Shown here piece after piece: positions 4,525-49,746 of a stretch of DNA of 64,000 nt. The DNA comes from Candidatus Dormiibacterota bacterium (GTDB lineage: Bacteria > Chloroflexota > Dormibacteria > Aeolococcales > Aeolococcaceae): positions 2,944,001 through 3,008,000 of the forward strand of contig OY970355.1 in NCBI GenBank assembly GCA_963718525.1. Reading direction: 5' to 3'. The position numbers and the translations under genes are program-made. Each line of letters opens with the position of its first letter. Position 1 is the stretch's first letter. The notes beneath the pieces are model-generated. The model searched no databases. It had not been told where the DNA came from and worked only from the letters and a program-made list of their open reading frames with translations.

Positions 4525-4536
4525 GGCTCGCCTCCT

Positions 4537-4559
4537 AATTCACTGACTGTTGAAGTCTA
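4537..4559 (-). promoter_or_regulatory. Putative TetR operator overlapping extended -10 of the ABC operon
   Basis: TTCA-N8-TGAA dyad (4539-4554) next to TGTGTAGACT on the minus strand. Confidence 0.45.
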
Positions 4560-4711
4560 CACATGCAGAATTCTTAGGGTTCAGTCGTCAGTCCACGAGT
4601 TGCCACTTAGGGTCGATCGCCGGTCCATGACGTGACAAAGGACTGTGGTCGCGCGATGGCCCAGCCTGGTTTCCTTGAGCTACGGGTCAGTGCTTACCGG
4701 AGATTCGAGCC

Positions 4712-5647
4712 ATGCAAGTGATCAGCCTTGACGAGAAATTGGGGCAAGGTAGCGTCAGCCTGCAGAACATCCTGCTTGCCACCGACGGTTCCCCGGCTGC
4801 TCACCTGGCGCTCGGTGCCGCCGCCGATCTGGCCAGACGGTCAGGGGCATCACTTCACCTGGTCACGGCGTACGAATTCGCTCCATCCAGCGTGCTGGCG
4901 TATGCGCCATATATCGGTCCGAACAGCGCATGGGATTCGTGCGAAGCTGACGCCCGACGGTTGCTCGACGACGAGCGGGATCGCGTGGTGGGGCTCGGCG
5001 CGTCCGTCGGGAGCCTTCACGTCGCGCGCGAACCGGCCTTCACCGCCGTGATGGAGGTGGCGGAGATGGTCGAGGCGGATCTCGTCGTTCTCGGAAGCCG
5101 CGAGCTCAACGGCCTGAAGCGTCTGCTGGTTGGAAGCGTCTCGGAGCATGTCGTTCACTCCGTGCATCGCCCGGTGCTGATCGTGAGGGGTGGTGAAGGT
5201 TCCTGGCCACCGGCGCAGGTGATCGTCGGCTTTGATAACACGGGTGGCGCCAAATGCGCGGCGCGGTTCGCCGCCACGATCACACACCTCTACCAGGATC
5301 TCCCCATCGCATTGGTTGAAGCCGGCGCAGAGCTGTCGGTGGCCACGGATCGTTTTCTTGTTCCCGACGAGGAAGAACGAGTCGAGGCCCAGCACCTACA
5401 GGAGTACGCCAGGAGCCTGAGCACGATCGCGGGCCGCACCGTGGAGACCCTCGTCGTGGTCAGTGATCCGGCCGACGCTCTCAATGCGACCGGAAGCGGC
5501 CGACCCGGCTCGAGGCTCGTCGTCGTGGGCAGTCGCGATCTCGGCGCCGTGCGACGCTTCTTGCTCGGCAGCGTCTCGACCAAGCTCCTGCATTCAGGGC
5601 ACACAGCGCTGCTGGTTGTGCCGGAGCATTCGATCCAGGCGAATTGA
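4712..5647 (+). CDS. Universal stress protein (tandem USP domains)
   Basis: ILLATDGS ... GSRELNGLKRLLVGSVSEHVV...PVLIVR and a second GSRDLGAVRRFLLGSVS repeat. Confidence 0.92.
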   Translation: MQVISLDEKLGQGSVSLQNILLATDGSPAAHLALGAAADLARRSGASLHLVTAYEFAPSSVLAYAPYIGPNSAWDSCEADARRLLDDERDRVVGLGASVGSLHVAREPAFTAVMEVAEMVEADLVVLGSRELNGLKRLLVGSVSEHVVHSVHRPVLIVRGGEGSWPPAQVIVGFDNTGGAKCAARFAATITHLYQDLPIALVEAGAELSVATDRFLVPDEEERVEAQHLQEYARSLSTIAGRTVETLVVVSDPADALNATGSGRPGSRLVVVGSRDLGAVRRFLLGSVSTKLLHSGHTALLVVPEHSIQAN

Positions 5648-5659
5648 CCGTTGCGGCGG

Positions 5660-6364
5660 TCAGATGCCGCCGAGCTCTTTGGGCGGCCTGACGTTGCGGT
5701 CGTCGAACCGGTACGTCAGCGTTGGTTCGACGTCGATGACACCGTCGACGCCAAGGATCAGGTGGATCAGAATCTCCACGTCACTGCGCCGGTCCACCTC
5801 TCCATGGATGCGCACGGCGCCGTCGTTGACCTCGACCTCGAAGGTCGACGGATCCAGCCACATACTGCCGCGGACAATGCCTTCGACGACGTCCGAGCGA
5901 ATGTCGGCATCGGACCGCAGGTAGCTTGTGAGCACATCTGCGCGGCTGACGATGCCGACCAGCATTCCGTGATCGACGACGGGTAGACGTTTGACGCTCC
6001 GCTGACGCATCAGCCGTGCGGCGGCGGCAAGCGGCATGTCAGGGGTCACGCAGACCGCGGGCGTGGACATCAACCCCGCCGCCGTCTGGGCGCGCCCCTT
6101 GGTCCGCCGGTCGCGCGCACCACGAGTTCAGCCGCCGGGCTCAGAGACCTCGGCTTCGGTCCGCAGCAGAAGATCCGCTTCTGAGACCACGCCGACGACA
6201 CCACCCTCTGGATCCACGACCGGAAGCGCGCTGACGTTGTGATCGTTCATCAGTTGCTCGATGCTTTTGAAAGGCGTGTCGGCGGTGATGGTCACCACGT
6301 CACGGGTCATCACGTCGCCGACCTTGAGCCGGGTGGGTCGTCGAAAAGCTTCGAGCTCGGACAT
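5660..6364 (-). CDS. CBS-pair + BON domain protein, interrupted by in-frame TGA at 6128-6130 (probably TGG miscalled)
   Basis: The two ORFs are in the same frame; KVGDVMTRDVV, LPVVD, GIVSRADVL CBS motifs and C-terminal BON (VEVNDGAVRIHGEV). Confidence 0.85.
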
Positions 6365-6468
6365 AGCTGCGATTCTGGCATCCGAAGGCCGACTCCTTCC
6401 GTCTCTGGTCCAAACCGGTCGAACGGCGCAAAGATATCACTCGTACATGCTCATTCCGAGTGAATGCC

Positions 6469-7440
6469 TTAGTCGCTCGGAGCGACCCTGAGGATCACGT
6501 TTCCGATCTTTTGCCCCGTCTCCACATACCGTACCGCTTCAACTATTTCATCAAGCGTGTACGTCCTGTCGATCAGGGGTTTGTACTCCCCGGACTCGAG
6601 AAGTTGTTTGATGTACTCAATCTTCTCCTTGTCGATCTTGGGGATCGGAAAGATGACTTGTCGGGATCTAGTCATTGCAAACCAGATCGCCAATAGCGGA
6701 TTTTGGAAACCGCGACCCAACTCGGTGGAGTAGTAGGTCCCTCCCGCAGCAAGCAACTTCTTGCATGCGCCATATGAACTCTTACCCACGGCGTCGAAGA
6801 TGAAGTCGAATCTTTCTGGAATCTGACTGAAGTCTTCGGTTTCAAAGTTGATGACGCGATCCGCGCCCAGCTTCTCCACCAGCGGCACGCTGTTCGTGCC
6901 GCAAACCGCCGTGACGCTAACGCCCAAGTGTTTCAGAATCTGTACAGCCGCTGAGCCGATCGCTCCTGAAGCCCCGTAAACAAGCGCACGTTGGCCCGTT
7001 CGGATATGAACCGCACGAATCACATTGATCGCATATGTCGCCCCTTCTCCTGCAGGAGCGACCTGTTCATAACTAACACTATCGGGCATGGTCGTGATCG
7101 GGCCATCGGCGGCCTCGGTCATGTACTCGGCATGCGCTGCACCCCGCAGGTCGTCAAAACCAAAGACCCGATCTCCGACTTTGAAGTCGGTGACGTTAGC
7201 GCCAATTCCAACCACCTTGCCGGCAAATTCACTTCCCGCAACCGTGCGCTTCGGCTTGACCAGACCCGTGAAGAATCGGGATACGAAGTACTTCGCGCTT
7301 CGATATCCACAGTCGGTTCGGTTGACCGTTGTGGCATAGACCTGTATCAGAACCTCATTAGCAGCAGGTACCGGCTTCGCCACGTCGCGAATCCGCAGGA
7401 CTTCGGGTGGTCCGTATCTGGTGTAGACAACCGCCTTCAT
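6469..7440 (-). CDS. NAD(P)-dependent alcohol dehydrogenase/quinone reductase (MDR superfamily)
   Basis: MKAVVYTRYGPPEVL, GSEFAGKV, YGASGAIGSAAVQ Rossmann motif; visibly lower GC than flanks. Confidence 0.9.
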   Translation of the reverse strand: MKAVVYTRYGPPEVLRIRDVAKPVPAANEVLIQVYATTVNRTDCGYRSAKYFVSRFFTGLVKPKRTVAGSEFAGKVVGIGANVTDFKVGDRVFGFDDLRGAAHAEYMTEAADGPITTMPDSVSYEQVAPAGEGATYAINVIRAVHIRTGQRALVYGASGAIGSAAVQILKHLGVSVTAVCGTNSVPLVEKLGADRVINFETEDFSQIPERFDFIFDAVGKSSYGACKKLLAAGGTYYSTELGRGFQNPLLAIWFAMTRSRQVIFPIPKIDKEKIEYIKQLLESGEYKPLIDRTYTLDEIVEAVRYVETGQKIGNVILRVAPSD

Positions 7441-7949
7441 TTGCGGCTGAGCATGCGCTCTTTCGGGACACTCCGTCGCCCGGGTACAGGATACCCGCAT
7501 ATCCCAAGGCGGACTTCTGCTGGTTCGTTTGTCACAGCTCGTGTGGGTCAACTGCGAGCCGAGGACCTCAAGCCGCGCTGGACAGTCGTGGAGGGTTGTA
7601 TCAGCGATTGACCAGGTTGTCGATCTGGCTTGCACGAGTGGCGGACACGCCTTTCGTGAGCTTCATTTATGAATTGGACCTCCCAGCGGGGTTCGGGTCG
7701 CGTAGCTCAAACTCAGTTGGCAGCCATGCCGATTTCGTGTGAGCCGAGGCGGTCACAGGCCCGCCTCGCACGGTGGCCGGACTTCGCGTGATTTCGTGAC
7801 CTTCGCCTCTGACGAAGGCTGCAAGCTATGGCGAGACTGGGTGGAGAAACGCCAGACGCATACTTGAGGTGTTCGACATGGTTGTTCGCACGAAAGTTCG
7901 TCAATCGCTGCCGCTAGACATCGTCGCGACCCGATCATCCTCCACGCAC

Positions 7950-8145
7950 CGGCGGTTGGCACGAGTTGTTGGCGCGCTGTTCATTACCGCCACGGTTGGA
8001 ATCCTGGTGGGTCAGAGTGTGGAAGCGTCCCTGGCCACCACCCCGATCAATCTCATCAGGGTCCACTCAAACGAAACCCAACTTGCTAGCAGCTGTGTTT
8101 CAGTTGGTCGCGGCCATGGCATGCGCCGTTACGGGTGGCATAGGC
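7950..8145 (+). pseudogene. Truncated, frameshifted remnant of a DUF4386-like membrane protein
   Basis: ARVVGALFITATVGIL...HSNETQL continues after a frame change as LLAAVFQLVAAMACAV, then similarity ends. Confidence 0.45.
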
Positions 8146-8164
8146 TTCCTGGAGCCGGAAGGTC

Positions 8165-8218
8165 GTACGGCTTCCGCCGAACGTTCGGTTAACTCCGAAC
8201 GTTCGGCCATCGCCGTAC
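8165..8218. promoter_or_regulatory. Three abutting 18-bp palindromic boxes GTWCGG-N6-CCGWAC
   Basis: GTACGG-cttccg-CCGAAC (8165-82), GTTCGG-ttaact-CCGAAC (8183-8200), GTTCGG-ccatcg-CCGTAC (8201-18); ends 17 bp before the ArsR start. Confidence 0.75.
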
Positions 8219-8235
8219 GATACGACAACGAAACT

Positions 8236-8748
8236 GTGCCGGCAACGCACGACCTCGCGGAAACACCCGACCCGCGCCTCGTCGCACTCTACAGGGCCCT
8301 CGGCGACGGCACCCGCCTGCGGATCCTCCGTCGGCTCGCCGCCGGCCCGGCAACGGTCGGCCGGATCGGTGACGAGCTCGGCCTCGCCAAGTCCACCGTG
8401 CACGAGCACCTCTTCAGCCTGCGCACCGCAGGACTGGTGCGGCTGGTGGTGAACGGAGGGTTTGCCTTGGAGCCGGAGATCCCCGACCTCAACCGCATGC
8501 TCAAAGAGTTCCTCGGCCTCGAGATGCGCCGCCAGTGCGAAGGCTGCGCCAAACCGCTGCGGCCGGGCGGCGTCGCCTTCATCTGCAGCTTCGAGTGCAC
8601 GTTCTGCGACGCCTGCGCAACGCGCCACCGTCACGTCTGCCCCAACTGCGGTGGCGAGCTGGTGCGGCGCCCGCGCCGGGCGTCGAACCGGCGCGCGGCC
8701 CGCACACCGTCGATCACCACGCACCTGAGCGCGCCCGGCCGGCATTGA
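8236..8748 (+). CDS. ArsR-family HTH fused to Cys-rich DUF1272-like domain
   Basis: RALGDGTRLRILRRL...LGLAKSTVHEHLFSLRTAGLV, then LEMRRQCEGC...ICSFECTFCDAC...CPNCGGELVRRPRR. Confidence 0.85.
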   Translation: MPATHDLAETPDPRLVALYRALGDGTRLRILRRLAAGPATVGRIGDELGLAKSTVHEHLFSLRTAGLVRLVVNGGFALEPEIPDLNRMLKEFLGLEMRRQCEGCAKPLRPGGVAFICSFECTFCDACATRHRHVCPNCGGELVRRPRRASNRRAARTPSITTHLSAPGRH

Positions 8749-9752
8749 TGCATGTCCATGGACATGCCTGCCCACGGTGGCGGGTAGTGTGCGTGGCGGC
8801 CTTGCTGATGGCCGCGTGTGGTGGCCAATCTGGCGGCGCCGGAACTCCGTCCGCCACTGCACGAGCGCTGACCCTGCATGCGTCGTTCTTCGCGCTGCCG
8901 ACTGCGGGCTCGGCGCCTACCGGGCTCGTCGTCGGCCCGGATGGGGCGCTGTGGGTCACCGAGGAGAACGGCGACGGCATCGCAAGGGTCACCACCGCGG
9001 GGACGACCTCCGAGTTCGCACTACCTCGACCCGGTGCGCCGGGTCTCAGCATTGTGTCCGGACCGGACGGCGCCCTCTGGTTCACCGATCGCGGCGCCGA
9101 CGAGGTGGATCGCCTGACGCTCTCCGGCTCGTTCCGGGCGATCCACCTCCCGCGTGGCAGTTCGCCGCTGGGCATCTGCGCTGGCCCCTTGCAGTCCTTG
9201 TGGGTGACGCAGAGCAGCACGGGCGAACTGGACCGTATCGCGCTGAACGGAATGGTGACACCGGTCGCGCAGCTCGGCGCCACCGCGTCGCCCGTTGCGA
9301 TCGTGCAAGGCCATGATGGCAACCTTTGGGTGTCCGAGGCGGGCGCCATCGCCCGGGTCACCCCGCAGGGATCCATCACGGCGTACCCGCTGGCGATGCC
9401 GGGGGCCGGCACGCTGCGCATCGTCAACGGCAGCGGTGGAGACCTCTGGTTCACCGAACAGACCGCTGGTGCCGTCGGTCACATCTCGCTGAAGGGCCTG
9501 ATCACCATGCTGCCCGCACTCCTGAACCAACCGACCGGAATTGTCGAGGGTCCCGACGGCCACATGTGGGTCGCCGAGGAGGGTGCGGGCCGCATCGACC
9601 GCGTCGACGGCAGTTCGCTGACGGCCTTCACGGTTCCACAATCGGGCAGTGAGCCGGAGGACATCGTCGCCGGCCCGAGGCGGACGCTGTGGTTCACCGA
9701 CTTCCACACAGGCCTCGTCGCGACGTTCTCAGCCGACGCCCCGGCCGGGTGA
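8748..9752 (+). CDS. Vgb (virginiamycin B lyase)-like beta-propeller lipoprotein
   Basis: Lipobox LMAAC; repeated P.gi..GPDGxLWxTE units; start overlaps ArsR stop (TGATG). Confidence 0.85.
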   Translation: MHVHGHACPRWRVVCVAALLMAACGGQSGGAGTPSATARALTLHASFFALPTAGSAPTGLVVGPDGALWVTEENGDGIARVTTAGTTSEFALPRPGAPGLSIVSGPDGALWFTDRGADEVDRLTLSGSFRAIHLPRGSSPLGICAGPLQSLWVTQSSTGELDRIALNGMVTPVAQLGATASPVAIVQGHDGNLWVSEAGAIARVTPQGSITAYPLAMPGAGTLRIVNGSGGDLWFTEQTAGAVGHISLKGLITMLPALLNQPTGIVEGPDGHMWVAEEGAGRIDRVDGSSLTAFTVPQSGSEPEDIVAGPRRTLWFTDFHTGLVATFSADAPAG

Positions 9753-38978: not shown

Positions 38979-41363
38979 ATGCGGCGGCCTGTGGCCACCG
39001 TGAGGATCACACCAGGCAGTGCACCCGGCGCGCTCGTGCTGCCGGAGGGCTCAGCCTTGCGCCGACTCGCCCCGCGGATCCCGGCCAATCGACGCCGCTG
39101 GCCCCGGGGAGTGATGGTCCTCGGGCTGGTCACCGGCGTTCTCACCCTGCTGTATCTCGGGTCGACGGTCCTTCGCAGGCCCGGCACGTCCGATTACTTC
39201 TTTGATGTCTGGGTCGCCAATCTCGGGTACGCGGGGTGCGCGACCCTGTGCGCCTGGCGGGCGATCGCTCGACGTCGCGGGCGCTGGGGCTGGGGGGCTC
39301 TGGCGGTCGGCCTCTGGTTCTTCACCGCGGGATCGGTCCTCTGGACCGCCTGGGTGCAGTACTTCGTCCCTCTCCCGTACCCCTCGATCTCCGACGCCTG
39401 CTTCCTTTCGTTCTTCGTGTTCGCGTTCCCGGGCATCGGCCTCCTGGTCCGCGAGACCGTCCCACACACCTCGAAGACCATCTGGGTCGACGGTCTGATC
39501 GCCGCTCTCGGGGTCGCCGCACTCGAGTCCACCCTGGTGATCGGTCCGATCATCAACGCGAGCACTGCGGGTGGCTTCGGAACCCTCGCGACGAACATCG
39601 CGTATCCGATCGGCGACATGGTCCTCGTCACCATGGTGGTCGCGGTCTTTGCCGTTCGAGGCTGGCGGCCGGGACGCCTCTGGTGGACGCTCGGCGCCGG
39701 ACTCGTTGTGTTCGCGGCCGCAGACAGCATCTTTGTGCTGCGCGTGACCTCGAACAACTACGTCACGGGAACCCCACTGGACAGCCTGTGGCTCATCGGC
39801 GCCTTTCTCATGGCCTTCGCCGCCTGGCAGGGCATGGGGATGTCGGCTGCACGGAGCACGACGATCATTCGGCCAACCAACGTCGTTCCGGTCCTGTTCC
39901 TGCTCAGCTCGCTGGGAATCGTGGTGTATGCGGCTGGACGATCGATCTCCCTCGGCGTGGTCCTCGCCGTCGCAACGCTCCTGATCGCCATCGCCCGGTC
40001 CGCATATGCGTTTCGACAGCTGCGCGCGCTCGCCGACAGCCGGCGCGAGGCCCGAACGGACGAACTGACCGGCCTGCCCAACCGCCGGCTGTTCTTCGAG
40101 AGTCTCGCCGCATGCCTCGAACTTGGGGCCTTGGAAACGACCGCGGTGCTCATGATCGACCTTGATCGCTTCAAGGAGATCAACGACAGCCTCGGACACC
40201 ACGTCGGTGATGACGTGCTGCGCCAGCTCGGCCCGCGTCTCACCGCCGCGGTGGGCAGCACAGCGACGGTGGCACGCCTGGGAGGGGATGAATTCGGCTT
40301 GATCCTCTCCCCACTCGTCAATACCGCCGAGGCGACCGGGGCCGCGGAACGAGTTCGTGAGGCCCTGCGGCAGCCGTTTCAACTCGAGGGCATGAGCCTT
40401 CGAGTCGATGCGAGCATCGGGATCGCTCTCGCGCCCGACCACGGCACCACTCCAGAGAGCGTGCTGCAGAAGGCGGATGTCGCCATGTTCGCCGCAAAGC
40501 ACGCGCATGTCCCGTGGGAGATCTACTCGTCAGAGCATGACCAGAATGCGCTGAACCGGCTCGAGCTCATGGAAGACTTGCGCGATGCGTTGCGTCGTCA
40601 CGAGATCGTGCTGCACTACCAACCGATCCTCGACCTGACATCGGGCACCGTCACGGGCGCAGAGGCGCTGGCGCGATGGCAGCACCCCTCACGCGGACTC
40701 CTTCCACCGGGCGTGTTCCTCGGATTGATCACGGATGCAGGGCTCATGGGTCCGTTCACCATGGACGTGCTCGATCAGGCATTGGTCCAGCAGGCCACCT
40801 GGTCTGAGCGGGGATATGACCTCGGTGTCTCGGTCAACATCTCCGCGGCCAGTCTTCGTGACGAGGATCTCCCCGACAAGATTGCCGCGCGAATCGCCGC
40901 GCGCCACGTGAGACCCGCGCGCATCACGCTCGAGATCACCGAGGACTGCTTCATCGCAGACCCCGAGCAGGCGATGCTTGTCCTGGAGCGGTTGCGCGCT
41001 CTTGGCGTCGAGCTCTCGATCGACGACTTCGGTACCGGCTTCTCGTCGCTCACGTACATCCGCCGGCTGCCGGTCAGTGAGCTGAAGCTCGACCGAACCT
41101 TCCTGACCGGCGCACCGCAGGATGCTCGGGCTGTGGCGGTGATTCGCTCCACGGTCGGCCTGGCTCACGCACTCGGATTGCGCATCGTCGCCGAGGGCAT
41201 CGAAACGCTCGATGCACTCGAGCTGGTCGACCGCTTGGGCTGTGACGCAGCGCAGGGCTACCTCATCGGCCGACCCGCGCCCGCCGAGGACTTTGATGTC
41301 AGTGCCGCTGCCCAAGAGGCACGGGTTGACGCGGAGTACGTCTCCGCCACGGTCACTTCATAG
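38979..41363 (+). CDS. Membrane-bound diguanylate cyclase/phosphodiesterase (GGDEF-EAL)
   Basis: Multi-TM N-terminus; DELTGLPNRR, RLGGDEF, EAL, EITE, DDFGTGFSSL, AEGIE, QGY; start uncertain. Confidence 0.93.
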   Translation: MRRPVATVRITPGSAPGALVLPEGSALRRLAPRIPANRRRWPRGVMVLGLVTGVLTLLYLGSTVLRRPGTSDYFFDVWVANLGYAGCATLCAWRAIARRRGRWGWGALAVGLWFFTAGSVLWTAWVQYFVPLPYPSISDACFLSFFVFAFPGIGLLVRETVPHTSKTIWVDGLIAALGVAALESTLVIGPIINASTAGGFGTLATNIAYPIGDMVLVTMVVAVFAVRGWRPGRLWWTLGAGLVVFAAADSIFVLRVTSNNYVTGTPLDSLWLIGAFLMAFAAWQGMGMSAARSTTIIRPTNVVPVLFLLSSLGIVVYAAGRSISLGVVLAVATLLIAIARSAYAFRQLRALADSRREARTDELTGLPNRRLFFESLAACLELGALETTAVLMIDLDRFKEINDSLGHHVGDDVLRQLGPRLTAAVGSTATVARLGGDEFGLILSPLVNTAEATGAAERVREALRQPFQLEGMSLRVDASIGIALAPDHGTTPESVLQKADVAMFAAKHAHVPWEIYSSEHDQNALNRLELMEDLRDALRRHEIVLHYQPILDLTSGTVTGAEALARWQHPSRGLLPPGVFLGLITDAGLMGPFTMDVLDQALVQQATWSERGYDLGVSVNISAASLRDEDLPDKIAARIAARHVRPARITLEITEDCFIADPEQAMLVLERLRALGVELSIDDFGTGFSSLTYIRRLPVSELKLDRTFLTGAPQDARAVAVIRSTVGLAHALGLRIVAEGIETLDALELVDRLGCDAAQGYLIGRPAPAEDFDVSAAAQEARVDAEYVSATVTS

Positions 41364-41515
41364 CCGGAGGTATTCCCCTGGCTGCCGGCCGCAATCCACG
41401 CGCGGCCGGTCGCACAGGACACGACGTTCAGCCCCGATGCGTACTGTGTGCCGATCGGATTCGGGGTCGGCTGGATCCGCCCGAGAGGTGCCTCGCCGCC
41501 CGACCCGCCTACTTA

Positions 41516-41533
41516 CCGTGGCAGAACTTGTAC
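41516..41533. repeat. att direct repeat (displaced original secA 3' end)
   Basis: CCGTGGCAGAACTTGTAC; minus strand 41532-41509 reads YKFCHGK*. Confidence 0.9.
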
Positions 41534-41583
41534 ATCCGTCAGTCGGCCCAAAACAACAGGACTAGCAGCACTTTCTCCGCCTC

Positions 41584-41603
41584 TACCCTCATCAAAACCC
41601 TCA
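41584..41603. repeat. Putative integrase arm-type sites, left end
   Basis: TACCCTCA-tcaa-AACCCTCA, same arrangement as 46676-46695. Confidence 0.7.
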
Positions 41604-42371
41604 AACCGGCCGCACCCCGCGCTCCACAATCTCGCGCAAGGCGGACACCTTCCAGACAAACCCCAAGTCAGACTCCTGATTCACACGCCCCGAGTAAACC
41701 CCAAGCAGTCGCTCGACAGAACCGGCGAACACGGCGACACCGCCGCTGCGCATTGCAACAGCGCCACCTCCGCTGTAGAAGATCACCGGCGACCCGGACT
41801 GTCCCGCCCGGGTCCGGCTGTCCACCAGATACAGCGGCAACCCATCGAATTCGACAGCAGGCTCAGTAGCAATACTCCCGCGCGACCAAATTCCTAATGA
41901 CCCGCCACCGCTCAGACCAAACGGGAACCCAATGATGAACACCCCCTCCGCAACACCTGCAGCAATTTCCGGCTCGACAGTCCAGGGATCGTGTCGGTAG
42001 AGCTCCACATCGTCCATCGAGGAGAGCGGCAACGCGACGACGTCCACGCGGCGCCCAAAATCAGGGTGCTCCCGCCACAAAGGCTGACCCGCGCCATTGT
42101 ATAGCGGGTCGGCGACCTCCCTCCACTGTCCGAGACGATCCTTCACATTGTGCATCGTCCTCAGTTCGCTCGGCACCGCCCCAGACGAGTGAAGCGGCTG
42201 ATTGGTTCGCGGATCCCTCCCACTGACAACGTGCCAGTTCGTTATCAGGTAGTTCACACCGTTCCAGCCTACTGCGAAGCCCGTTGCGCTACCAAGTACA
42301 TTGGAACCCGCTATCGCACGGATTAACAACGACGCCACCGAGGGGCGGGCGATCGCGCTGTCTGCCGTCAC
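41601..42371 (-). CDS. Trypsin-like serine protease, no signal peptide
   Basis: ATGF, ITNWHVV (His), VDVV (Asp), GQSGSPV (Ser). Confidence 0.88.
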   Translation of the reverse strand: MTADSAIARPSVASLLIRAIAGSNVLGSATGFAVGWNGVNYLITNWHVVSGRDPRTNQPLHSSGAVPSELRTMHNVKDRLGQWREVADPLYNGAGQPLWREHPDFGRRVDVVALPLSSMDDVELYRHDPWTVEPEIAAGVAEGVFIIGFPFGLSGGGSLGIWSRGSIATEPAVEFDGLPLYLVDSRTRAGQSGSPVIFYSGGGAVAMRSGGVAVFAGSVERLLGVYSGRVNQESDLGFVWKVSALREIVERGVRPV

Positions 42372-42405
42372 GCGCTAAGCCGGCTCTGAGCGAATGGGCA
42401 TGTCG

Positions 42406-43488
42406 TCACTCTGCTGCCACCACCACACGAACGGCCGGGCCGAAGCGAGCGTTGATACGGTCCACCATTGCCGCCGTCCCCGACGCGTCAGCATGCGCAT
42501 ACGTGTTGTACGTGAATCCCGGCGACGCATGGCCTAGCATCTTCGAGACTAACTGAATCGGCACCCCATCGCCGATCGCGAGGGTAGCAGCCGAATGCCT
42601 AAGATCATGAAAACGGACACGTCGGATTCCTGCCCGTTCGCACATCACGAGCCATCGTTTGTAGAACGTCGACCGCGCCATCGGTTCCGCGTCTGTCCCC
42701 GGCCAGATCAATGCCCCACGGCGAGGCGTCCGCCTAAGCGCGCTAACGCATCGATCCGACAGCTCAAGAGTCCGCCGCCCCGTCGCCGTCTTGGGCGATG
42801 TGACCACCCGACGCCCCTCCTCATCCACGGTCGCCGTGCCGGCCACGCGGAGCGTACGCCGCGCCAGATCTACATGCTCCCACCGCAGTCCAAGAAGCTC
42901 GCCCTCACGAAGGCCATGCAGCGCCGCGAGCGCGTACGCGGCCTCGAACGGATCACCTTCAGCAGCGTCAAGCAACCGCTCAACTTCAGCCCAGCTAAGC
43001 GTCGTAATCTCGTGCTTAGTGCTCCTCGGTTTATCAACGGCCTGAAGTGCGGAGCTAACCCGGTATCCACGCTTGCGCGCAGAGTTAAGAGCGATCGCCA
43101 ACGTCCGCTGAATCTGGCCCACTGTGTTGCCCGTCACCCGGCGTGCCGCGGTTGCGTGGAGCTTGTCGATGTGGTCGGGCTTCAGTACGTCAAGCCGCAC
43201 ATCACCTATTGCGGGAACGATGTGTATTCGGCCGTGCCGCTCATATGTTGCCCAGGTCGAAGCCGCCACAGTCCCTCGGATGAGATCAAGCCATCGCGCG
43301 AACCAATCGCGGACACTTGGTGACTGGGACGCGACGAACCGACGCTCCCTCTTTGCCTGGTCCGCCTTCGCCTGCGCCTCGGCCTGCGTCCGCCCGTAGA
43401 CGCTGATCTGCTGACCGGCCACCCTTACGCGGCACTCCCAGCGGTTACCTCGCCGCCGCATAGTTCCTGTCCCGCGACGCTGCCGCAT
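42406..43488 (-). CDS. Tyrosine recombinase/integrase
   Basis: GLREGELLGLRW (R), PKT (K), FHDLRH (HxxR), LGH, TYAH (Y); N-terminal arm-binding domain. Confidence 0.96.
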   Translation of the reverse strand: MRQRRGTGTMRRRGNRWECRVRVAGQQISVYGRTQAEAQAKADQAKRERRFVASQSPSVRDWFARWLDLIRGTVAASTWATYERHGRIHIVPAIGDVRLDVLKPDHIDKLHATAARRVTGNTVGQIQRTLAIALNSARKRGYRVSSALQAVDKPRSTKHEITTLSWAEVERLLDAAEGDPFEAAYALAALHGLREGELLGLRWEHVDLARRTLRVAGTATVDEEGRRVVTSPKTATGRRTLELSDRCVSALRRTPRRGALIWPGTDAEPMARSTFYKRWLVMCERAGIRRVRFHDLRHSAATLAIGDGVPIQLVSKMLGHASPGFTYNTYAHADASGTAAMVDRINARFGPAVRVVVAAE

Positions 43489-43502
43489 GATTGCCGCCGA
43501 TC

Positions 43503-43751
43503 CTAGCGCCTCACCCGCACCCACGTCCTGGCCGGCCACGGCACCCCTTCGACTGGATCGGTCGCGTGATCTACATAGGCGTTCAGGTCGGCCAAACGAT
43601 AGCGGACGAGCCGACTGCTGATCTGAGTCTTTGGGATGCAGCCCGATCGAACCAGGCGCTTCAGCGTACTAGTGCTACACGCCAAATACAGGGCGGCCTC
43701 ATCAACCCTAAGGAGTTCCGAGCGCACCGCGGGGCCACCTTCTAGATTCAC
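43503..43751 (-). CDS. Excisionase-like HTH protein
   Basis: LLRVDEAALYLACSTSTLKRLVRSGCIP...VRYRLADL; lies between rep and int. Confidence 0.85.
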   Translation of the reverse strand: MNLEGGPAVRSELLRVDEAALYLACSTSTLKRLVRSGCIPKTQISSRLVRYRLADLNAYVDHATDPVEGVPWPARTWVRVRR

Positions 43752-44839
43752 GATGCTCCCACGCCAGCGCCATCGCTAAGGATGGCGGCCGGCTCGCCCG
43801 AGGCCCCGTCGGGAGCAAGGCCCGCGAGCAGCCGCAACTGCCCCACCGTAAGCCGACGAGCTCCGGAGTTGAGCAGCTCACGCACAAACTCAACCCCATA
43901 CCCGAGCTCGACAAGCGCGAGCGACGGTGCAACTTGCTTATAGAGCCACATTGCTATTTGCTCCAGCCCGTCCTCCTTCGACGGCAACCGCAGCATCGCG
44001 CGCTCGGCATCCCCAATGATCGACGCCCACCAATCGAGAAGCTCGGCGCGATCCCCCCGCGACCCGTCTTTCCGCTGCGTGAAGTCCACGAGGCCCCGGA
44101 TCGTTCCGAGCACGTGATTCCCTAGCCTCTCGCCCGCTGCCACGGCGCCCTGGAGAAACGAACCGGCACGCTCATCCCGGAGCTGTACCTCCCACCGTAC
44201 GCCCGCCCCTGCGACGCCCGACTCGGCAGCTTTGTCGTAGACGCGGATCAGGGCCAGCGACTTGACCGAACCAAGATATGTGCTTGCTCCAGCGGCTTCT
44301 AATGCTCCCGGACCTCGTCTCACAAACGTCTGTACTTCGCGGACACGAGTTAGATGCGTAAGTGTGAGTCGCTTACGGAAGGCGTCGGCCACTGTCCCAG
44401 GCTCTGCGCGCCGCAGCCGGTCGTCGTAGTAGCCGTCCACCCGTGTTACGTGCGCCTCCAGCCCGACCACCTGCCTAGCCAGCTCAATGCCAGCCTTTCC
44501 GCCCAGGACGTCGAACCCCGACTGCCGAATCTCCAGGTACGTCTCTTTGGCACCTGGCCGTGTCCGCGGCGACCACGCGAGGAACGCCCAATGGCCCACT
44601 TCGGCGGACGATCGATACCAGCGGTTTCCACCATCCCGGTCTTCCGGCATGGAGCCGAACGCACCACCCACAAGGGCGGCAACGTCAGGAGAGCTCATGC
44701 TCCGTATCGTTGCCTGAAGCCATCCAAGTCCTACGGTTGTCATTTCCACCCCCGTGTTACCCATCGGGGGTTCTGCTTTTGTCGGCTCTAAAGGCACAGG
44801 CCGAAGCCTAGCACAAGGAGATGCTTTTGTCCGCTCCAA
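43748..44839 (-). CDS. Rep_trans family replication initiator / MOBT relaxase
   Basis: TRVDGYYDD, TYLGS...IRVYDK, RWEVQL; start may be 44743. Confidence 0.85.
   Translation of the reverse strand: MERTKASPCARLRPVPLEPTKAEPPMGNTGVEMTTVGLGWLQATIRSMSSPDVAALVGGAFGSMPEDRDGGNRWYRSSAEVGHWAFLAWSPRTRPGAKETYLEIRQSGFDVLGGKAGIELARQVVGLEAHVTRVDGYYDDRLRRAEPGTVADAFRKRLTLTHLTRVREVQTFVRRGPGALEAAGASTYLGSVKSLALIRVYDKAAESGVAGAGVRWEVQLRDERAGSFLQGAVAAGERLGNHVLGTIRGLVDFTQRKDGSRGDRAELLDWWASIIGDAERAMLRLPSKEDGLEQIAMWLYKQVAPSLALVELGYGVEFVRELLNSGARRLTVGQLRLLAGLAPDGASGEPAAILSDGAGVGAS
44748..44771 (-). other. Putative oriT/double-strand origin nick hairpin
   Basis: Minus strand ACCCCCG-ATGGGTAACA-CGGGGGT; resembles ICEBs1/Tn916 nic (ACCCCC...TAACA..GGGGGT) at the 5' end of the relaxase gene. 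Confidence 0.75.
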
Positions 44840-44914
44840 AGCATCCTGGCCTGGCCTCGTCCGGGCAGCTCGCGAGACCTTTCCTCCTCGCGGATCAAAC
44901 CTTTCGTGCGATCG

Positions 44915-45295
44915 TCAGTAGGTCGCTCGTGCCGCGCTGTCGGGGCCGGTCTCGACGCGTCCTGCCAGACGCGTCGTACCCGAGCCGACCGCTCGCCGCT
45001 TCCGCGGCCGGACGACGACCTCGACCTGATCTGGATCCTCTAGAAACACTGTCAGCATGTCCTTCGCATCGAGCTCCAGGAGCAGCATCTCAATGGCTAG
45101 ACGCACGATCTTGCCCATCGGCACGTCGCGCCCCTGGGCTTTCGCCCCCTCCGCTGCGTTCTTAAGCTTCGCGTGAAACTCGGGCGAGACCCGGATCGTC
45201 AGGCGCTCCAGCCCATTAACGCTAACCGGCCGGCCGCCCTTCTTACCCGCGGCTACCTTCACCGGGTCCTTCTCGCGCTGATCCTTGTTAGGCAT
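44915..45295 (-). CDS. Putative ribbon-helix-helix regulator
   Basis: ERLTIRVSPEFHAKLKNAA...MGKIVRLAIE beta-alpha-alpha pattern upstream of rep. Confidence 0.6.
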   Translation of the reverse strand: MPNKDQREKDPVKVAAGKKGGRPVSVNGLERLTIRVSPEFHAKLKNAAEGAKAQGRDVPMGKIVRLAIEMLLLELDAKDMLTVFLEDPDQVEVVVRPRKRRAVGSGTTRLAGRVETGPDSAARATY

Positions 45296-45458
45296 CTGCT
45301 TATGAGCCTACCAAAGCAGAGGGCTTAGGTGAGTCACGTTTTGTGATCGGTGCCTAATTTCAGCGTGACAATGCACGGGGACGCGACCCGCACTCATAGC
45401 GCCTCACTCCTGGTCTCCGCCGCCGAGCGCTTCCCCTGGGCGCATAGAATCGATTGGC

Positions 45459-45923
45459 ATGGACCGGTCCAGAGGCCCCTACCTCATCCACGCTGTGGTG
45501 TGCGAGCGAGTGCTCCAAGAGCAAGACGGCGTGTTGAGCCTAATCCGGGTCATTGATCGAATCACAGCGCTGACGATCCAATACGCTGGCCCCGGCGCCC
45601 CGGCGTTCTCTCCTCCTCCGCCACCTGCCTCGACTTCCGTGACATTCGCTCTCGGCTTCCGCTCCGGAGACTTCCAGGGGACCCTCCCGCTTCGCCTAAG
45701 AATCGACACCCCCTCGGGCTTGAAGCTACCCGAGGTTCAATTGTCGGTCCTCTTCGAAGGAGCCGATCGGGGCGCTAACGTGATCCTCCCCATGCAGTTC
45801 CCCTTGCAGGAGGAGGGACTCCACTGGTTTACCGTAGAGCTTGGCGGCGATGCGGTCACCCGAGTCCCATTGAGAGTCATCCGACAGACTGCGATCCAGA
45901 CCGTCCCCCCGCAGATTGGATAG
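45459..45923 (+). CDS. DUF6941-like beta-rich protein
   Basis: AVVCERV..E.DGVLSLIRVIDRI...EEGLHWFTV...RVPLRV; TAGAAT 8 nt upstream of ATG. Confidence 0.6.
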   Translation: MDRSRGPYLIHAVVCERVLQEQDGVLSLIRVIDRITALTIQYAGPGAPAFSPPPPPASTSVTFALGFRSGDFQGTLPLRLRIDTPSGLKLPEVQLSVLFEGADRGANVILPMQFPLQEEGLHWFTVELGGDAVTRVPLRVIRQTAIQTVPPQIG

Positions 45924-45937
45924 GGAAACGCCTGCCT

Positions 45938-46216
45938 TCAGGCCGCAATCGCCACAGGCGACAGGTATTCATCGAGAACCCGTGGCGTTGCGATCACTCC
46001 CGTCCTGACCTCCCCACGATCAAACCACAGCGATTGCGCTAATAGTTCGTGCCCCGAAAGGGTCCATTTGCCCGCGCGGTCAACTAGGGAGAGGTCATCG
46101 GTTGCGTCGGCTCCTTGGTCCAAGGCCAAGCTCCGCAGCCATCCCATGGCGTCATCGACCATCGGAAAGACGGCTAGCCGGTTCCGGCTTAGCAGACCCC
46201 ACACTTCATATCTCAT
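45938..46216 (-). CDS. Hypothetical protein, candidate antitoxin/partner
   Basis: MRYEVW...NRLAVF..; overlaps the upstream gene by 11 nt. Confidence 0.6.
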   Translation of the reverse strand: MRYEVWGLLSRNRLAVFPMVDDAMGWLRSLALDQGADATDDLSLVDRAGKWTLSGHELLAQSLWFDRGEVRTGVIATPRVLDEYLSPVAIAA

Positions 46217-46550
46217 CGTCTAACGGTACCTCATGAACGGCCCAAACGCTGCGAACGGCCCCCAGGAGCTGATCTGGGGCAACCCCGTGAAGTCCAACGT
46301 GCCCGGTTTCCTCATCGTAACTGTTGATCAGATCCTCTGCGATCTCCATCCGCGCAATGAACCCACCTAGCCTAGGTAGCAATTGCGCCATTTCCATGCC
46401 TCGCCGCGCCGTGTCGAACGTGCTGACCTCCGCCCAGTGGACACGGTCTTCATCGGTCAGGGGCCTACGCGGCTTCGCACCCAGCGCCTCCTGGCTCTTC
46501 ATATCCTCTTCGATAGGCGGATTGTTCTGACAGATCCGATAGACGTGCAT
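46206..46550 (-). CDS. Hypothetical protein, candidate ART-fold toxin
   Basis: VYR...VSTF...GH motif spacing; TATCCT 7 nt upstream of ATG. Confidence 0.6.
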   Translation of the reverse strand: MHVYRICQNNPPIEEDMKSQEALGAKPRRPLTDEDRVHWAEVSTFDTARRGMEMAQLLPRLGGFIARMEIAEDLINSYDEETGHVGLHGVAPDQLLGAVRSVWAVHEVPLDDEI

Positions 46551-46675
46551 CGTATCGAGGATATCTAACCGTCTGGATGCTGTACGCCGCCAGTCGCGCC
46601 TCCCCTCGCTCGCCCATGTCTAGCCGCACGACTCAGTCCCGGTAATCTTGGCCATGACCTCGGCGCTCGCAGCTA

Positions 46676-46695
46676 TACCCTCACAGGAACCCTCA
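46676..46695. repeat. Putative integrase arm-type sites, right end
   Basis: TACCCTCA-cagg-AACCCTCA (plus TAGCCTCG at 46701-46708). Confidence 0.7.
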
Positions 46696-46770
46696 TTCTC
46701 TAGCCTCGGGTGCCTCTCTCTGGCCGTCTATGACACCTCCACGAATTCGGCGCCCCAAAGAGCGACTACG

Positions 46771-49716
<2,946 letters not shown>

Positions 49717-49746
49717 GGTCCATTCCATTCTGGCAGCCCTGGCCAC

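What the first reader, a model, noticed from the sequence alone, without database searches (positions are those of the whole stretch)
41509..46798. Integrative element targeting the SEC-C motif of secA and rewriting the SecA C-terminus
Seen: direct repeats CCGTGGCAG(A/T)ACTTGTAC at 41516-33 and 46781-98. The left copy on the minus strand encodes YKFCHGK*, an orphaned secA end, while secA now ends YKYCHGRA*. Int-Xis-Rep_trans lie between. The mismatch position is consistent with crossover in ACTTGTAC. Known: tyrosine integrases often restore target 3' ends (tRNAs, ssrA, guaA, prfC, rpsI), and the SecA C-terminal CxC...CH motif binds metal, SecB and ribosomes. secA is not a target I recognise as commonly described. 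Inference: a family of small elements uses the highly conserved SEC-C coding sequence of an essential gene as attB, preserves the Cys-His ligands and changes terminal residues. It could also target other SEC-C-containing genes.
Basis: partly seen in the sequence, partly recalled or inferred. Interest (0 to 1): 0.85.

Follow-up and report, generated by a model that had tools for sequence, protein, structure and literature searches.

The report
Mobile element docked in secA's tail
A 5.3-kb mobile DNA element has inserted itself into the last few codons of the essential secretion gene secA of a soil bacterium and supplies a replacement gene end, showing that this conserved gene tail serves as a landing pad much as tRNA genes do.

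Summary
An 18-bp direct repeat (one mismatch) at 41516-33 and 46781-98 brackets 5,265 bp. These carry a tyrosine integrase, an excisionase, a Rep_trans protein and five cargo or unknown genes.

The left copy is an orphaned secA end (YKFCHGK*). The working secA now ends YKYCHGRA*.

Metagenome contigs from the same study join 41525 directly to 46791.

A relative (G004, Candidatus Dormibacteraeota) carries a 20-kb element at the same site. Its integrase is 70-80% identical, and paired ACCCT(C/A/G)A motifs sit at the same distances from the core.

The next-nearest integrases (45-57% identity) sit beside tRNA-Leu(CAG). This lineage therefore switched core target while keeping that motif.

A second, phylogenetically separate integrase lineage lies directly downstream of secA in six other genomes. 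Integrase-less cassettes flanked by secA tails occur in three more.

Overall, 11 of 161 genomes of the order show an occupied secA tail.

The mechanism is ordinary site-specific integration into a gene's 3' end, with that end restored. The target is new: five literature searches found no description. Earlier notes of this scan report secA-tail integration in other phyla. The tail change lies within natural variation.

The parts
38979..41363 (+). GGDEF-EAL gene. This is the chromosomal left flank. In empty-site relatives it is followed within about 150 bp by the secA end.
   Evidence: Pfam EAL 2e-69 and GGDEF 8.3e-42; synteny in G016, G010, G007 and G018
41509..41535 (-). Orphaned native secA end (M-Y-K-F-C-H-G-K-stop). 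The stop and the K and G codons are chromosomal.
   Evidence: Read. The empty-site contig keeps this end attached to secA.
41516..41533 (.). attL core, CCGTGGCAGAACTTGTAC
   Evidence: (family D12)
41526..41533 (.). Inferred strand-exchange (overlap) region ACTTGTAC. Its twin is at 46791-46798.
   Evidence: The joint 41525 to 46791 has 8 letters that fit either side, and the empty site carries the attL base A at the mismatch.
41584..41603 (+). Candidate arm-type integrase sites (P' arm): TACCCTCA and AACCCTCA, 12 bp apart, 51 and 63 bp from the core
   Evidence: All 4 window matches to WACCCTCA lie at the two ends of the element. The G004 element has the same pairs at the same distances. Sister tRNA-Leu and tRNA-Gln loci carry such pairs or triplets between integrase and tRNA.
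41601..42371 (-). Cargo: trypsin-like serine peptidase, 256 aa
   Evidence: PF13365 5.1e-10; phrog_7688 8.8e-29; PADLOC candidate PDC-S45 8.7e-15, partial coverage
42406..43539 (-). Tyrosine integrase, 377 aa, lineage A
   Evidence: PF00589 3.2e-25 covering 5-170 of 172 positions, PF14659; phrog_1 2.4e-69. The motifs GLREGE, SPKT, HDLRH, LGHAS and TYAH are visible in the translation; their naming is from my own knowledge.
43503..43751 (-). Excisionase / recombination directionality factor, 82 aa
   Evidence: PF12728 6.5e-10; TIGR01764 'excise' 1.2e-8, above its cut-off
43748..44839 (-). Rep_trans rolling-circle initiator or relaxase-like protein. The real start is probably the ATG at 44743 or 44764.
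   Evidence: PF02486 3.9e-21; weak MobT match, 26 bits against a cut-off of 600; 38 homologues besides its own cluster at 33-61% identity, mostly on short metagenome contigs
44774..44841 (.). Two 20-nt direct repeats, 48 bp apart, just upstream of rep. They could be an operator or origin repeats; the function is inferred.
   Evidence: the repeat finder family D13, 90% identical
44915..45295 (-). 126-aa ORF, possibly a small DNA-binding regulator
   Evidence: Sub-threshold matches only: HicB 0.0026 and phrog_876 repressor 0.0045
45459..45923 (+). DUF6941 protein, 154 aa. The same family sits upstream of a Rep_trans homologue on metagenome locus L080.
   Evidence: PF22091 1.5e-7; L080 DUF6941 2.6e-14 next to Rep_trans
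45938..46216 (-). 92-aa ORF of unknown function. It overlaps the next ORF by 11 nt.
   Evidence: No family in Pfam, NCBIfam, PHROGs or PADLOC; best Atlas score 0.84
46206..46550 (-). 114-aa ORF in an unnamed conserved family
   Evidence: Atlas clusters score 0.95-0.96 but carry no Pfam family. Arr-ms and DUF952 appear only as weak leads.
46676..46695 (+). Candidate arm-type integrase sites (P arm): TACCCTCA and AACCCTCA, 12 bp apart, 105 and 93 bp before the core
   Evidence: The G004 element has TACCCTAA and TACCCTGA at 106 and 94 bp.
46781..46798 (.). attR core, CCGTGGCAGTACTTGTAC, inside the working secA
46771..49746 (-). secA, 991 aa. The second and third bases of the Tyr codon, the Cys-His-Gly-Arg-Ala codons and the stop (46771-46790) are element-derived.
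   Evidence: Six SecA Pfam domains including SEC-C 2.6e-9; the empty-site joint

Best explanation
This is a small integrative element of 5,265 bp that entered the chromosome by tyrosine-integrase site-specific recombination. Its attP core recombined with the DNA encoding the last residues of the SEC-C zinc motif of secA.

The native gene ended ...KKYKFCHGK*. Strand exchange took place in the 8-bp stretch ACTTGTAC, which covers the Tyr-Lys codons just upstream of the last Cys-His ligands. The element therefore now supplies most of the next codon (Phe to Tyr), the Cys, His and Gly codons, a new Arg-Ala end and the stop. The old end is left as an orphan 5.3 kb away.

The integrase probably binds paired ACCCTCA arm-type sites about 100 bp to one side of the core and about 55 bp to the other. 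With the adjacent excisionase it should be able to excise the element as a circle.

The Rep_trans protein would then nick and replicate that circle by rolling circle, or process it for transfer, as the rep-xis-int module of pSAM2-type elements does.

Shown: the anatomy, the empty site in a near-identical strain, a second element with a related integrase and the same att layout, and a second independent integrase lineage at the same target.

Inferred: present-day excision, the role of the ACCCTCA pairs, the role of Rep, and the route of transfer.
For: - Repeat significance: (2 matches, 0 expected).
- Gene content.
- Empty site: in run X4, contig record 20 (1,779 nt, depth 16.7) has 0 other letters on its left part and 1 on its right. 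In run X3 a 151-nt contig (depth 2.4) shows the same joint. Both join 41525 to 46791, skipping 5,265 bp, with 8 ambiguous letters and nothing in between. X4 has no depth over the element. The probable source run X1 has one 6,639-nt contig covering 41300-46808.
- Empty-site synteny in related species: G016, G010, G007 and G018, which are 4 of the 11 relatives' loci fetched.
- G021, with SecA 96% identical, ends KKYKYCHGK*. By eye its 3' flank is homologous to window 41478-41509.
- G004: cores at C5:182766 and C5:202742, a 28-bp repeat by eye, an orphan tail about 100 bp after the EAL gene, and an integrase 70-80% identical but frameshifted.
- The ACCCT(C/A/G)A pairs sit at the same distances in G000 and G004.
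- Integrase tree of 38 rows: G000 and G004 pair with 99/94 support inside a 23-row clade (100/100). Thirteen rows of that clade lie within 67 bp of tRNA-Leu(CAG). Six secA-adjacent integrases form a separate 100/100 clade.
- Order-wide pattern scan: 7 of 161 genomes have two same-strand cores on one contig. All 7 proved to be a working tail plus an orphan.
Against: - No circle junction (a joint running back from 46790 to 41526) was seen. Only assembled contigs were available, and these drop rare forms.
- The empty-site contigs could come from a sister strain that never held the element rather than from excision.
- The element has no FtsK/Tra-type or other transfer gene, so how it moves between cells is unknown.
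- The Rep protein is rare in the order: 3 of 161 genomes match. Its metagenomic relatives sit beside serine recombinases, not this integrase. The element is therefore a mosaic, and Rep's role with this integrase is not established.
- The G004 integrase is frameshifted.
- The closest relative, G021, has Tyr rather than Phe at the mismatch codon. Taken alone, that would have pointed to a crossover on the other side of the mismatch.
Confidence: 0.88

Rival explanations
1. It is a fossil: an element that integrated once and can no longer move. On this view the empty-site contigs come from sister strains that never received it.
For: No circle junction was seen. There is no transfer gene. The only close relative's integrase is frameshifted. 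Three other secA-tail inserts have no integrase at all.
Against: All eight ORFs are open. The integrase matches 5-170 of 172 positions of the Pfam catalytic domain and its active-site motifs are visible. Occupied and empty forms differ by 0-1 letters in their flanks, and both occur in run X3, so the gain or loss is very recent. The orphan tail is still intact, unlike the decayed orphans in G015, G103 and G097.
Confidence: 0.15
2. It is a phage satellite, or a remnant of one, rather than a plasmid-like element. Rep would amplify it after a helper phage induces it, and it would travel in helper capsids.
For: An int-xis-rep layout with a small size fits satellites. A Rep and DUF6941 relative on metagenome locus L080 lies about 4 kb upstream of a small-terminase gene. 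The peptidase matches a PHROG family.
Against: No terminase, capsid or packaging gene lies in the 5.3 kb. Viral contig scans found no relative of either integrase lineage. The G004 element carries a TrwB/TraG-like coupling ATPase, which points to conjugation.
Confidence: 0.08
3. The repeat is a by-product of unrelated events, such as homologous recombination or duplication of the secA end, and the integrase is incidental.
For: The core is only 18 bp. secA tails are highly conserved, so short identities are easy to obtain.
Against: The insert ends exactly at the repeat in the empty-site contigs. Arm motifs sit at fixed distances on both sides in two different elements. The same site is occupied in 11 of 161 genomes by different cargo.
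Confidence: 0.02

Closest known systems
Sister integrases of the same order that sit beside tRNA-Leu(CAG), including a second element in this genome at G000:C1:2827649-2828713
   Same: They fall in the same integrase clade at 45-57% identity. In the five loci L014, L027, L034, L036 and L044 the same ACCCT(C/A)A motif occurs in pairs or triplets at 12-bp spacing between the integrase and the att site, in the same orientation relative to int.
   Different: The core target is a tRNA gene, not secA. The best ungapped match between the secA core and the tRNA-Leu region is 12 of 21. None of the fetched loci has a Rep_trans homologue.
pSAM2-type actinomycete integrative and conjugative elements (AICEs); comparison from my own knowledge, no paper read here
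   Same: Rep, excisionase and integrase lie in a row on one strand next to the att site. The size is small. The expected behaviour is excision to a circle that a rolling-circle initiator replicates.
   Different: The host is Candidatus Dormibacteraeota, not Actinomycetota. The target is a protein gene rather than a tRNA. This element has no FtsK/SpoIIIE-type Tra, Spd or Kor genes.
Elements that integrate into the 3' end of a protein gene and bring a replacement end: e14 and phage 21 in icd, ICESt1/ICESt3 in fda, ICEs and IMEs in rpsI, guaA and others
   Same: The same logic applies. A conserved coding 3' end serves as attB, attP carries a look-alike end, the gene stays functional, and an orphan end is left at the far junction.
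   Different: The target gene is secA, and specifically the codons of the last two zinc ligands. Five full-text searches found no paper that describes this site.
Lineage-B secA-tail islands of the same order (G079, G073, G078, G085, G081, G109)
   Same: They use the same 18-bp core within secA, supply a replacement tail (FCHGA*, YCHGV* or FCHGK*) and leave an orphan tail at the far end where the contig allows it to be seen (G078, G085).
   Different: The integrase is only 35-36% identical and falls in a different major clade. It lies 18-116 bp from the secA end instead of at the far side. The islands are 16 and 34 kb where both ends are seen (G078, G085), and AbiE cargo was found in G079, G073 and G078. 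They share their own conserved arm next to the core.

Membership tests
Tyrosine-integrase integrative element at the 3' end of a gene | Tyrosine recombinase with a complete catalytic domain | tested here: met
   PF00589 3.2e-25 covering 5-170 of 172 positions, plus the N-terminal SAM-like domain. The R, K, H-x-x-R, H and Y motifs were seen by eye; the motif names are recalled.
Tyrosine-integrase integrative element at the 3' end of a gene | Direct repeat of the target (attL and attR) bounding the insert | tested here: met
   18 bp with 1 mismatch, two matches against 0 expected
Tyrosine-integrase integrative element at the 3' end of a gene | Empty site (attB) in the same or related strains that equals the flanks joined at the repeat | tested here: met
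   Contigs in runs X4 and X3 join 41525 to 46791. Four related species have the EAL gene followed directly by the secA end.
Tyrosine-integrase integrative element at the 3' end of a gene | Target gene stays open with a functional end | tested here: met
   secA is open for 991 aa and its SEC-C motif scores above the cut-off. All 11 occupied sites keep C-H-G in the working tail.
Tyrosine-integrase integrative element at the 3' end of a gene | Excised circular form (attP junction) | tested here: inconclusive
   No back-joint appeared among the contigs of 4 runs, and contigs cannot show rare forms.
AICE (pSAM2-like) | FtsK/SpoIIIE-type Tra protein for double-stranded DNA transfer | tested here: not met
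   None of the 8 ORFs has such a domain. The G004 element has a TrwB/TraG/HerA-like ATPase.
AICE (pSAM2-like) | Actinomycete host | tested here: not met
   The contig of relative G004 is titled Candidatus Dormibacteraeota.
AICE (pSAM2-like) | Replication initiator next to xis and int | tested here: met
   Rep_trans lies directly upstream of xis and int on the same strand. Whether pSAM2 RepSA belongs to the same Pfam family is recalled, not checked.
Integrative mobilizable element with a MobT relaxase | MobT-family relaxase | tested here: not met
   NF041493 scores 26.4 bits against a cut-off of 600. This shows only distant Rep_trans kinship.
Phage satellite (PICI-like) | Packaging or capsid-redirecting genes | tested here: not met
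   Pfam and PHROGs found none. Viral contigs hold no relative of the integrase.
SecA with a C-terminal SEC-C zinc motif | SEC-C motif (C-x-C ... C-H) at the C-terminus | tested here: met
   PF02810 at 37.2 bits against a cut-off of 20.4, residues 972-990. It is the only SEC-C match in the genome.

The most novel reading that the evidence does not exclude
The DNA encoding the SEC-C zinc-finger tail of secA may be a general, tRNA-like docking site. Unrelated integrases would have adopted it repeatedly and independently, because the sequence is conserved at the nucleotide level across hosts.

Within one order there are two separate integrase lineages at this site, and one of them arose from a tRNA-Leu-targeting clade while keeping its arm-site motif. 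Integrase-less cassettes also accumulate there. Earlier notes of this scan report the same target in Patescibacteria and gut Bacilli.

If this holds, secA joins tRNA, tmRNA and a few housekeeping genes as a major island hotspot. The lineage A / tRNA-Leu pair would then offer a natural system for studying how core specificity is re-programmed.
Probability: 0.4. Interest if true: 0.7.

Novelty: new member of a known kind. Interest (0 to 1): 0.55.

Why it matters
- It adds an essential, universally conserved protein gene to the list of island docking sites, in a phylum-level group known only from metagenomes.
- After integration, mobile DNA encodes two of the four zinc ligands of SecA.
- The lineage A integrase is nested among tRNA-Leu(CAG)-targeting relatives that share its ACCCT(C/A)A arm motif. 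This gives a clean natural example of a switch in core-site specificity, which matters to anyone trying to retarget integrases.
- In practical terms, many contigs of these assembled genomes break exactly at the secA tail. This probably reflects variable occupancy, so annotators and island finders should treat the site as a hotspot.

Tried and rejected
- **Crossover side.** From G021's Tyr codon I first inferred that the crossover lay in CCGTGGCAG and the native tail was YKYCHGK*. The empty-site contigs overruled this.
- **Similarity of the two targets.** The secA core and the tRNA-Leu(CAG) region share at best 12 of 21 ungapped, which is chance level.
- **Genome-collection scan.** The single-protein scan of genome contigs returned only G004 and one unrelated 33% hit.
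- **Viral contig scans.** Scans with both integrase lineages found nothing.
- **Rep relatives in metagenomes.** Of 21 loci found, I examined the 6 closest (L080-L085). None has a secA tail or a tRNA gene, and the only integrase match is a weak 30% partial one on L082. The ORFs next to Rep in L080, L081 and L084 are serine recombinases. The Rep family therefore does not define a secA-targeting family.
- **Phage records.** A tblastn of the SecA tail against phage records gave 41 records. I looked at three loci. L105 is an unannotated hit beside an rve-type gene. L106 holds a whole secA with ordinary bacterial neighbours. L107 holds a 168-aa SEC-C protein. L108 was fetched but not examined. None showed an attP-like tail beside an integrase, so this gave no cross-phylum test.
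- **Far ends of lineage B.** No second core was found for the G079 and G073 islands within their contigs.
- **Promoter and terminator scan.** Uninformative: 0 promoter-like and 2 terminator-like sites, both below the shuffle means.
- **Other SEC-C genes as targets.** There are none in this genome.
- **Earlier findings by place and by sequence.** Both look-ups returned nothing.
- **Papers.** The TIGER paper was not held under the DOI I tried. The two related papers I searched for 'secA' (PMC12884075 and PMC12424338, passages only) do not mention it. Supplementary tables are closed, and their island tables may list secA targets.

Full report
**What is there**

The window is G000:C1:2944001-3008000 of a 3.34-Mb single-contig genome. 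A same-genus relative's contig is titled Candidatus Dormibacteraeota.

CCGTGGCAGAACTTGTAC at 41516-33 and CCGTGGCAGTACTTGTAC at 46781-98 are the only two matches to the pattern in 64 kb, even with 2 mismatches allowed. None of 100 shuffles gave any match.

On the minus strand the left copy reads MYKFCHGK-stop (41509-41535). The right copy lies inside secA (46771-49746, 991 aa, six SecA domains including SEC-C), which ends [12 protein letters not shown].

All genes between the repeats are on the minus strand except one:
- a trypsin-like peptidase (41601-42371);
- a tyrosine integrase (42406-43539);
- an excisionase (43503-43751);
- a Rep_trans protein (43748-44839);
- a 126-aa ORF;
- a DUF6941 protein (plus strand);
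- two small overlapping ORFs.

GC is about 0.60-0.64 inside the insert and 0.65-0.70 outside.

**The empty site**

Four soil-metagenome runs of one study hold the stretch. When their contigs were laid on 41300-47000, the results were:
- X1, the probable source, has one 6,639-nt contig across attL and the whole element up to 46808.
- X4 has a 1,779-nt contig (depth 16.7) that runs 41300-41525 and then continues directly at 46791-47000. It has 0 other letters on the left part and 1 on the right. X4 has no depth on the element.
- X3 has the same joint in a 151-nt contig (depth 2.4), together with element pieces at depth 2.6-4.2.

The joint has 8 letters that fit either side (ACTTGTAC) and nothing in between. 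The unoccupied site therefore reads ...CCTACTTACCGTGGCAGA-ACTTGTAC-TTCTTCCC..., which gives secA ...KKYKFCHGK-stop.

The mismatch base A belongs to the chromosome and T to the element. Since attR carries T, exchange must have happened to the right of the mismatch, within ACTTGTAC.

It also overrules my earlier inference from G021. That relative has SecA 96% identical and ends [13 protein letters not shown], followed by a 3' flank that by eye matches window 41478-41509.

No circle junction was seen. With contigs only, that says little.

**Related species**

I fetched 11 loci around the best matches to the GGDEF-EAL flank:
- Four (G016, G010, G007, G018) have the EAL gene followed within about 150 bp by the secA end. 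Their native tails are YKYCHGR*, YKYCHGK* or YKFCHGR*.
- G008 has a 1.25-kb gap between the two genes, and G021 a 2.3-kb gap.
- The other five show no secA within the 1.5-kb flank.

**A second element of the same lineage**

In G004:C5 the EAL gene (74% protein identity) is followed about 100 bp later by an orphan tail...YKYCHGK with a TGA stop. The working secA end, 19,976 bp further on, has a TAG stop. By eye the repeat is 28 bp.

The insert holds an integrase 70-80% identical to ours but split by a frameshift, and an excisionase homologue at 50% identity. Its cargo includes a TrwB/TraG/HerA-like ATPase, an M48 peptidase, a DEAD helicase, an MmeI-type restriction-modification gene, a UDG-family protein and a DUF4209 protein.

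**Arm motifs**

All four window matches to WACCCTCA lie at the element's ends. They form two pairs 12 bp apart: 41584 and 41596, and 46676 and 46688 (1.34 matches expected in the whole window, and 4 of 100 shuffles reached 4).

The G004 element has TACCCTAA and TACCCTGA pairs at the same distances from its core: 51 and 63 bp on one side, 106 and 94 bp on the other.

Five sister loci carry the same motif in pairs or triplets at 12-bp spacing between the integrase and a tRNA gene: L014, L027, L034, L036 and L044. I read these as arm-type integrase sites. That is an inference.

**Integrase relatives**

In the order, 75 of 161 genomes have a match at E <= 1e-40. Apart from G004, the best are 45-57% identical.

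In a 38-row maximum-likelihood tree, G000 and G004 pair with 99/94 support inside a 23-row clade supported 100/100. The other rows of that clade are:
- 13 within 67 bp of tRNA-Leu(CAG);
- 1 beside tRNA-Gln;
- 2 pieces of one gene near tRNA-Leu(CAA);
- 5 with no tRNA in the locus, some at contig ends.

Before building the tree I dropped duplicate loci (L048, L033) and integrase pieces under 300 aa. The exception is the 244-aa G004 fragment, which was added as it stands.

A 401-genome sample of the phylum gave no closer relative outside the order.

**A second lineage and bare cassettes**

The core pattern with up to 2 mismatches occurs in 121 of 161 genomes of the order. Seven genomes have two same-strand copies on one contig: G000, G004, G015, G078, G085, G097 and G103. 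All seven proved to be a working secA tail plus an orphan.

In G078 (16.2 kb between cores) and G085 (34.4 kb), an integrase only 35-36% identical to ours lies 49-64 bp from the secA end. The same lineage lies 18-116 bp from the secA end in G079, G073, G081 and G109. These six form their own 100/100 clade, on the other side of the tree from lineage A.

G079 and G073 are 91-97% identical over this region, so they are not independent. Their cargo includes AbiEi/AbiEii.

In G085 an integrase fragment lies just beyond the orphan tail, which suggests tandem accretion.

Three inserts have no integrase:
- G015: 4.6 kb carrying ChrB, a chromate transporter and an MFS transporter.
- G103: 4.7 kb carrying methylase fragments.
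- G097: 1.8 kb carrying TetR and a short-chain dehydrogenase.

Their orphan tails are decayed. In all, 11 of 161 genomes show an occupied secA tail, and every working tail keeps Cys-His-Gly.

The tallies include unpublished genomes (G027, G032, G036, G044, G045, G054, G100, G152). None of the named examples rests on them.

**The Rep module**

Rep is rare in the order: 3 of 161 genomes match. It has 38 homologues besides its own cluster, at 33-61% identity, mostly on short metagenome contigs.

Of 21 metagenome loci found with a Rep alignment, I examined the six closest. None has a secA tail or a tRNA gene, and the only integrase match is a weak 30% partial one on L082. In L080, L081 and L084 the next gene is a serine recombinase. 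L080 also has a DUF6941 gene upstream of Rep and a small-terminase gene downstream.

The element is therefore a mosaic: a Rep/DUF6941 module joined to an int-xis pair of local origin.

**Literature**

Five full-text searches combining secA with integrase, attB, integration-site and island terms found no paper describing secA as an attachment site. The one candidate paper concerned SecA2-SecY2 cargo (passage read).

Two papers from the TIGER/Islander group do not mention secA in their main text (passages read). Their island tables are in supplements I could not open.

Earlier notes of this scan report secA-tail integration in three other genomes, including a Patescibacteria genome and gut Bacilli. 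They are unchecked AI notes. I did not test them, and my one attempt at a cross-phylum check through phage records was uninformative.

**Verdict**

The mechanism is the familiar integration into a gene's 3' end with restoration of that end.

Four things are new:
- the target, the SEC-C coding tail of secA;
- the host group;
- convergent use of the site by two integrase lineages within one order;
- a visible switch from a tRNA-Leu target to secA with the arm motif retained.

The change to SecA itself (F to Y, K* to RA*) lies within the natural variation of tails in relatives and is probably neutral.

Noticed in passing
window 41364-41477; L019 (G021:C41) 3886-6146: G021 has about 2.3 kb between secA and the EAL gene. 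It encodes WNG(T/A)xW-repeat proteins, one of which appears broken. G000 keeps only the last 114 bp of this stretch, so there is a deletion of about 2.1 kb right next to attL.
   Followed up: partly
listing: G060:C21:6-23, G077:C160:4-21, G078:C79:3-20, G084:C8:6-23, G110:C7:26-43, G044:C253:34-51, G096:C190:44-61, G108:C100:55-72: In at least eight genomes a contig starts within about 55 bp of the secA-tail core. This is as expected if assemblies branch there because occupied and empty forms coexist.
   Followed up: no
L067 (G015:C152) 3765-8340; L072 (G097:C139) 386-2148; L068 (G103:C1) 4433-9124: Three cassettes bounded by a working and a decayed secA tail carry no integrase. Their cargo is chromate resistance (ChrB, a chromate transporter, an MFS transporter), a TetR regulator with a short-chain dehydrogenase, and methylase fragments.
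   Followed up: partly
L070 (G085:C12) 1184-1477 and 1845-1862: An integrase fragment lies just beyond the orphan tail of the 34-kb island, and the sequence next to both cores is alike. This suggests two islands stacked in tandem.
   Followed up: partly
G000:C1:2827649-2828713 (L014, L057) and G000:C1:1044113-1045267 (L015), outside the window: The same genome has two more integrases. One is 47% identical and sits beside tRNA-Leu(CAG), with the same ACCCT(C/A)A pair. The other is 33% identical, has an in-frame TGA and sits beside tRNA-Lys(TTT).
   Followed up: partly
L080 3979-13428; L081; L084: Metagenomic relatives of the Rep protein are followed by large serine recombinases. On L080 the neighbourhood also holds DUF6941 and a small-terminase gene. 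This looks like a separate family of small integrative or phage-like elements.
   Followed up: partly
window 46206-46550 and 45938-46216: The overlapping 114-aa and 92-aa ORFs belong to unnamed families. The larger has weak Atlas leads to Arr-ms (feature score 0.82) and DUF952 (structure TM 0.57), so a small toxin-antitoxin-like pair is possible but unsupported.
   Followed up: partly
window 41601-42371: The trypsin-like peptidase partly matches PADLOC defence candidate PDC-S45 (8.7e-15, residues 141-231) and a PHROG family of unknown function. It may be a defence-type cargo gene.
   Followed up: no
G000:C1:118748-118765 and the same variant in G009, G013, G018, G022, G025, G098, G121, G122, G124 and G125: A conserved look-alike of the core, CCGTGCCAGTAGTTGTAC, recurs in at least 11 genomes including G000. 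It would encode Y-N-Y-W-H-G and is not a SEC-C motif. The gene was not identified.
   Followed up: no
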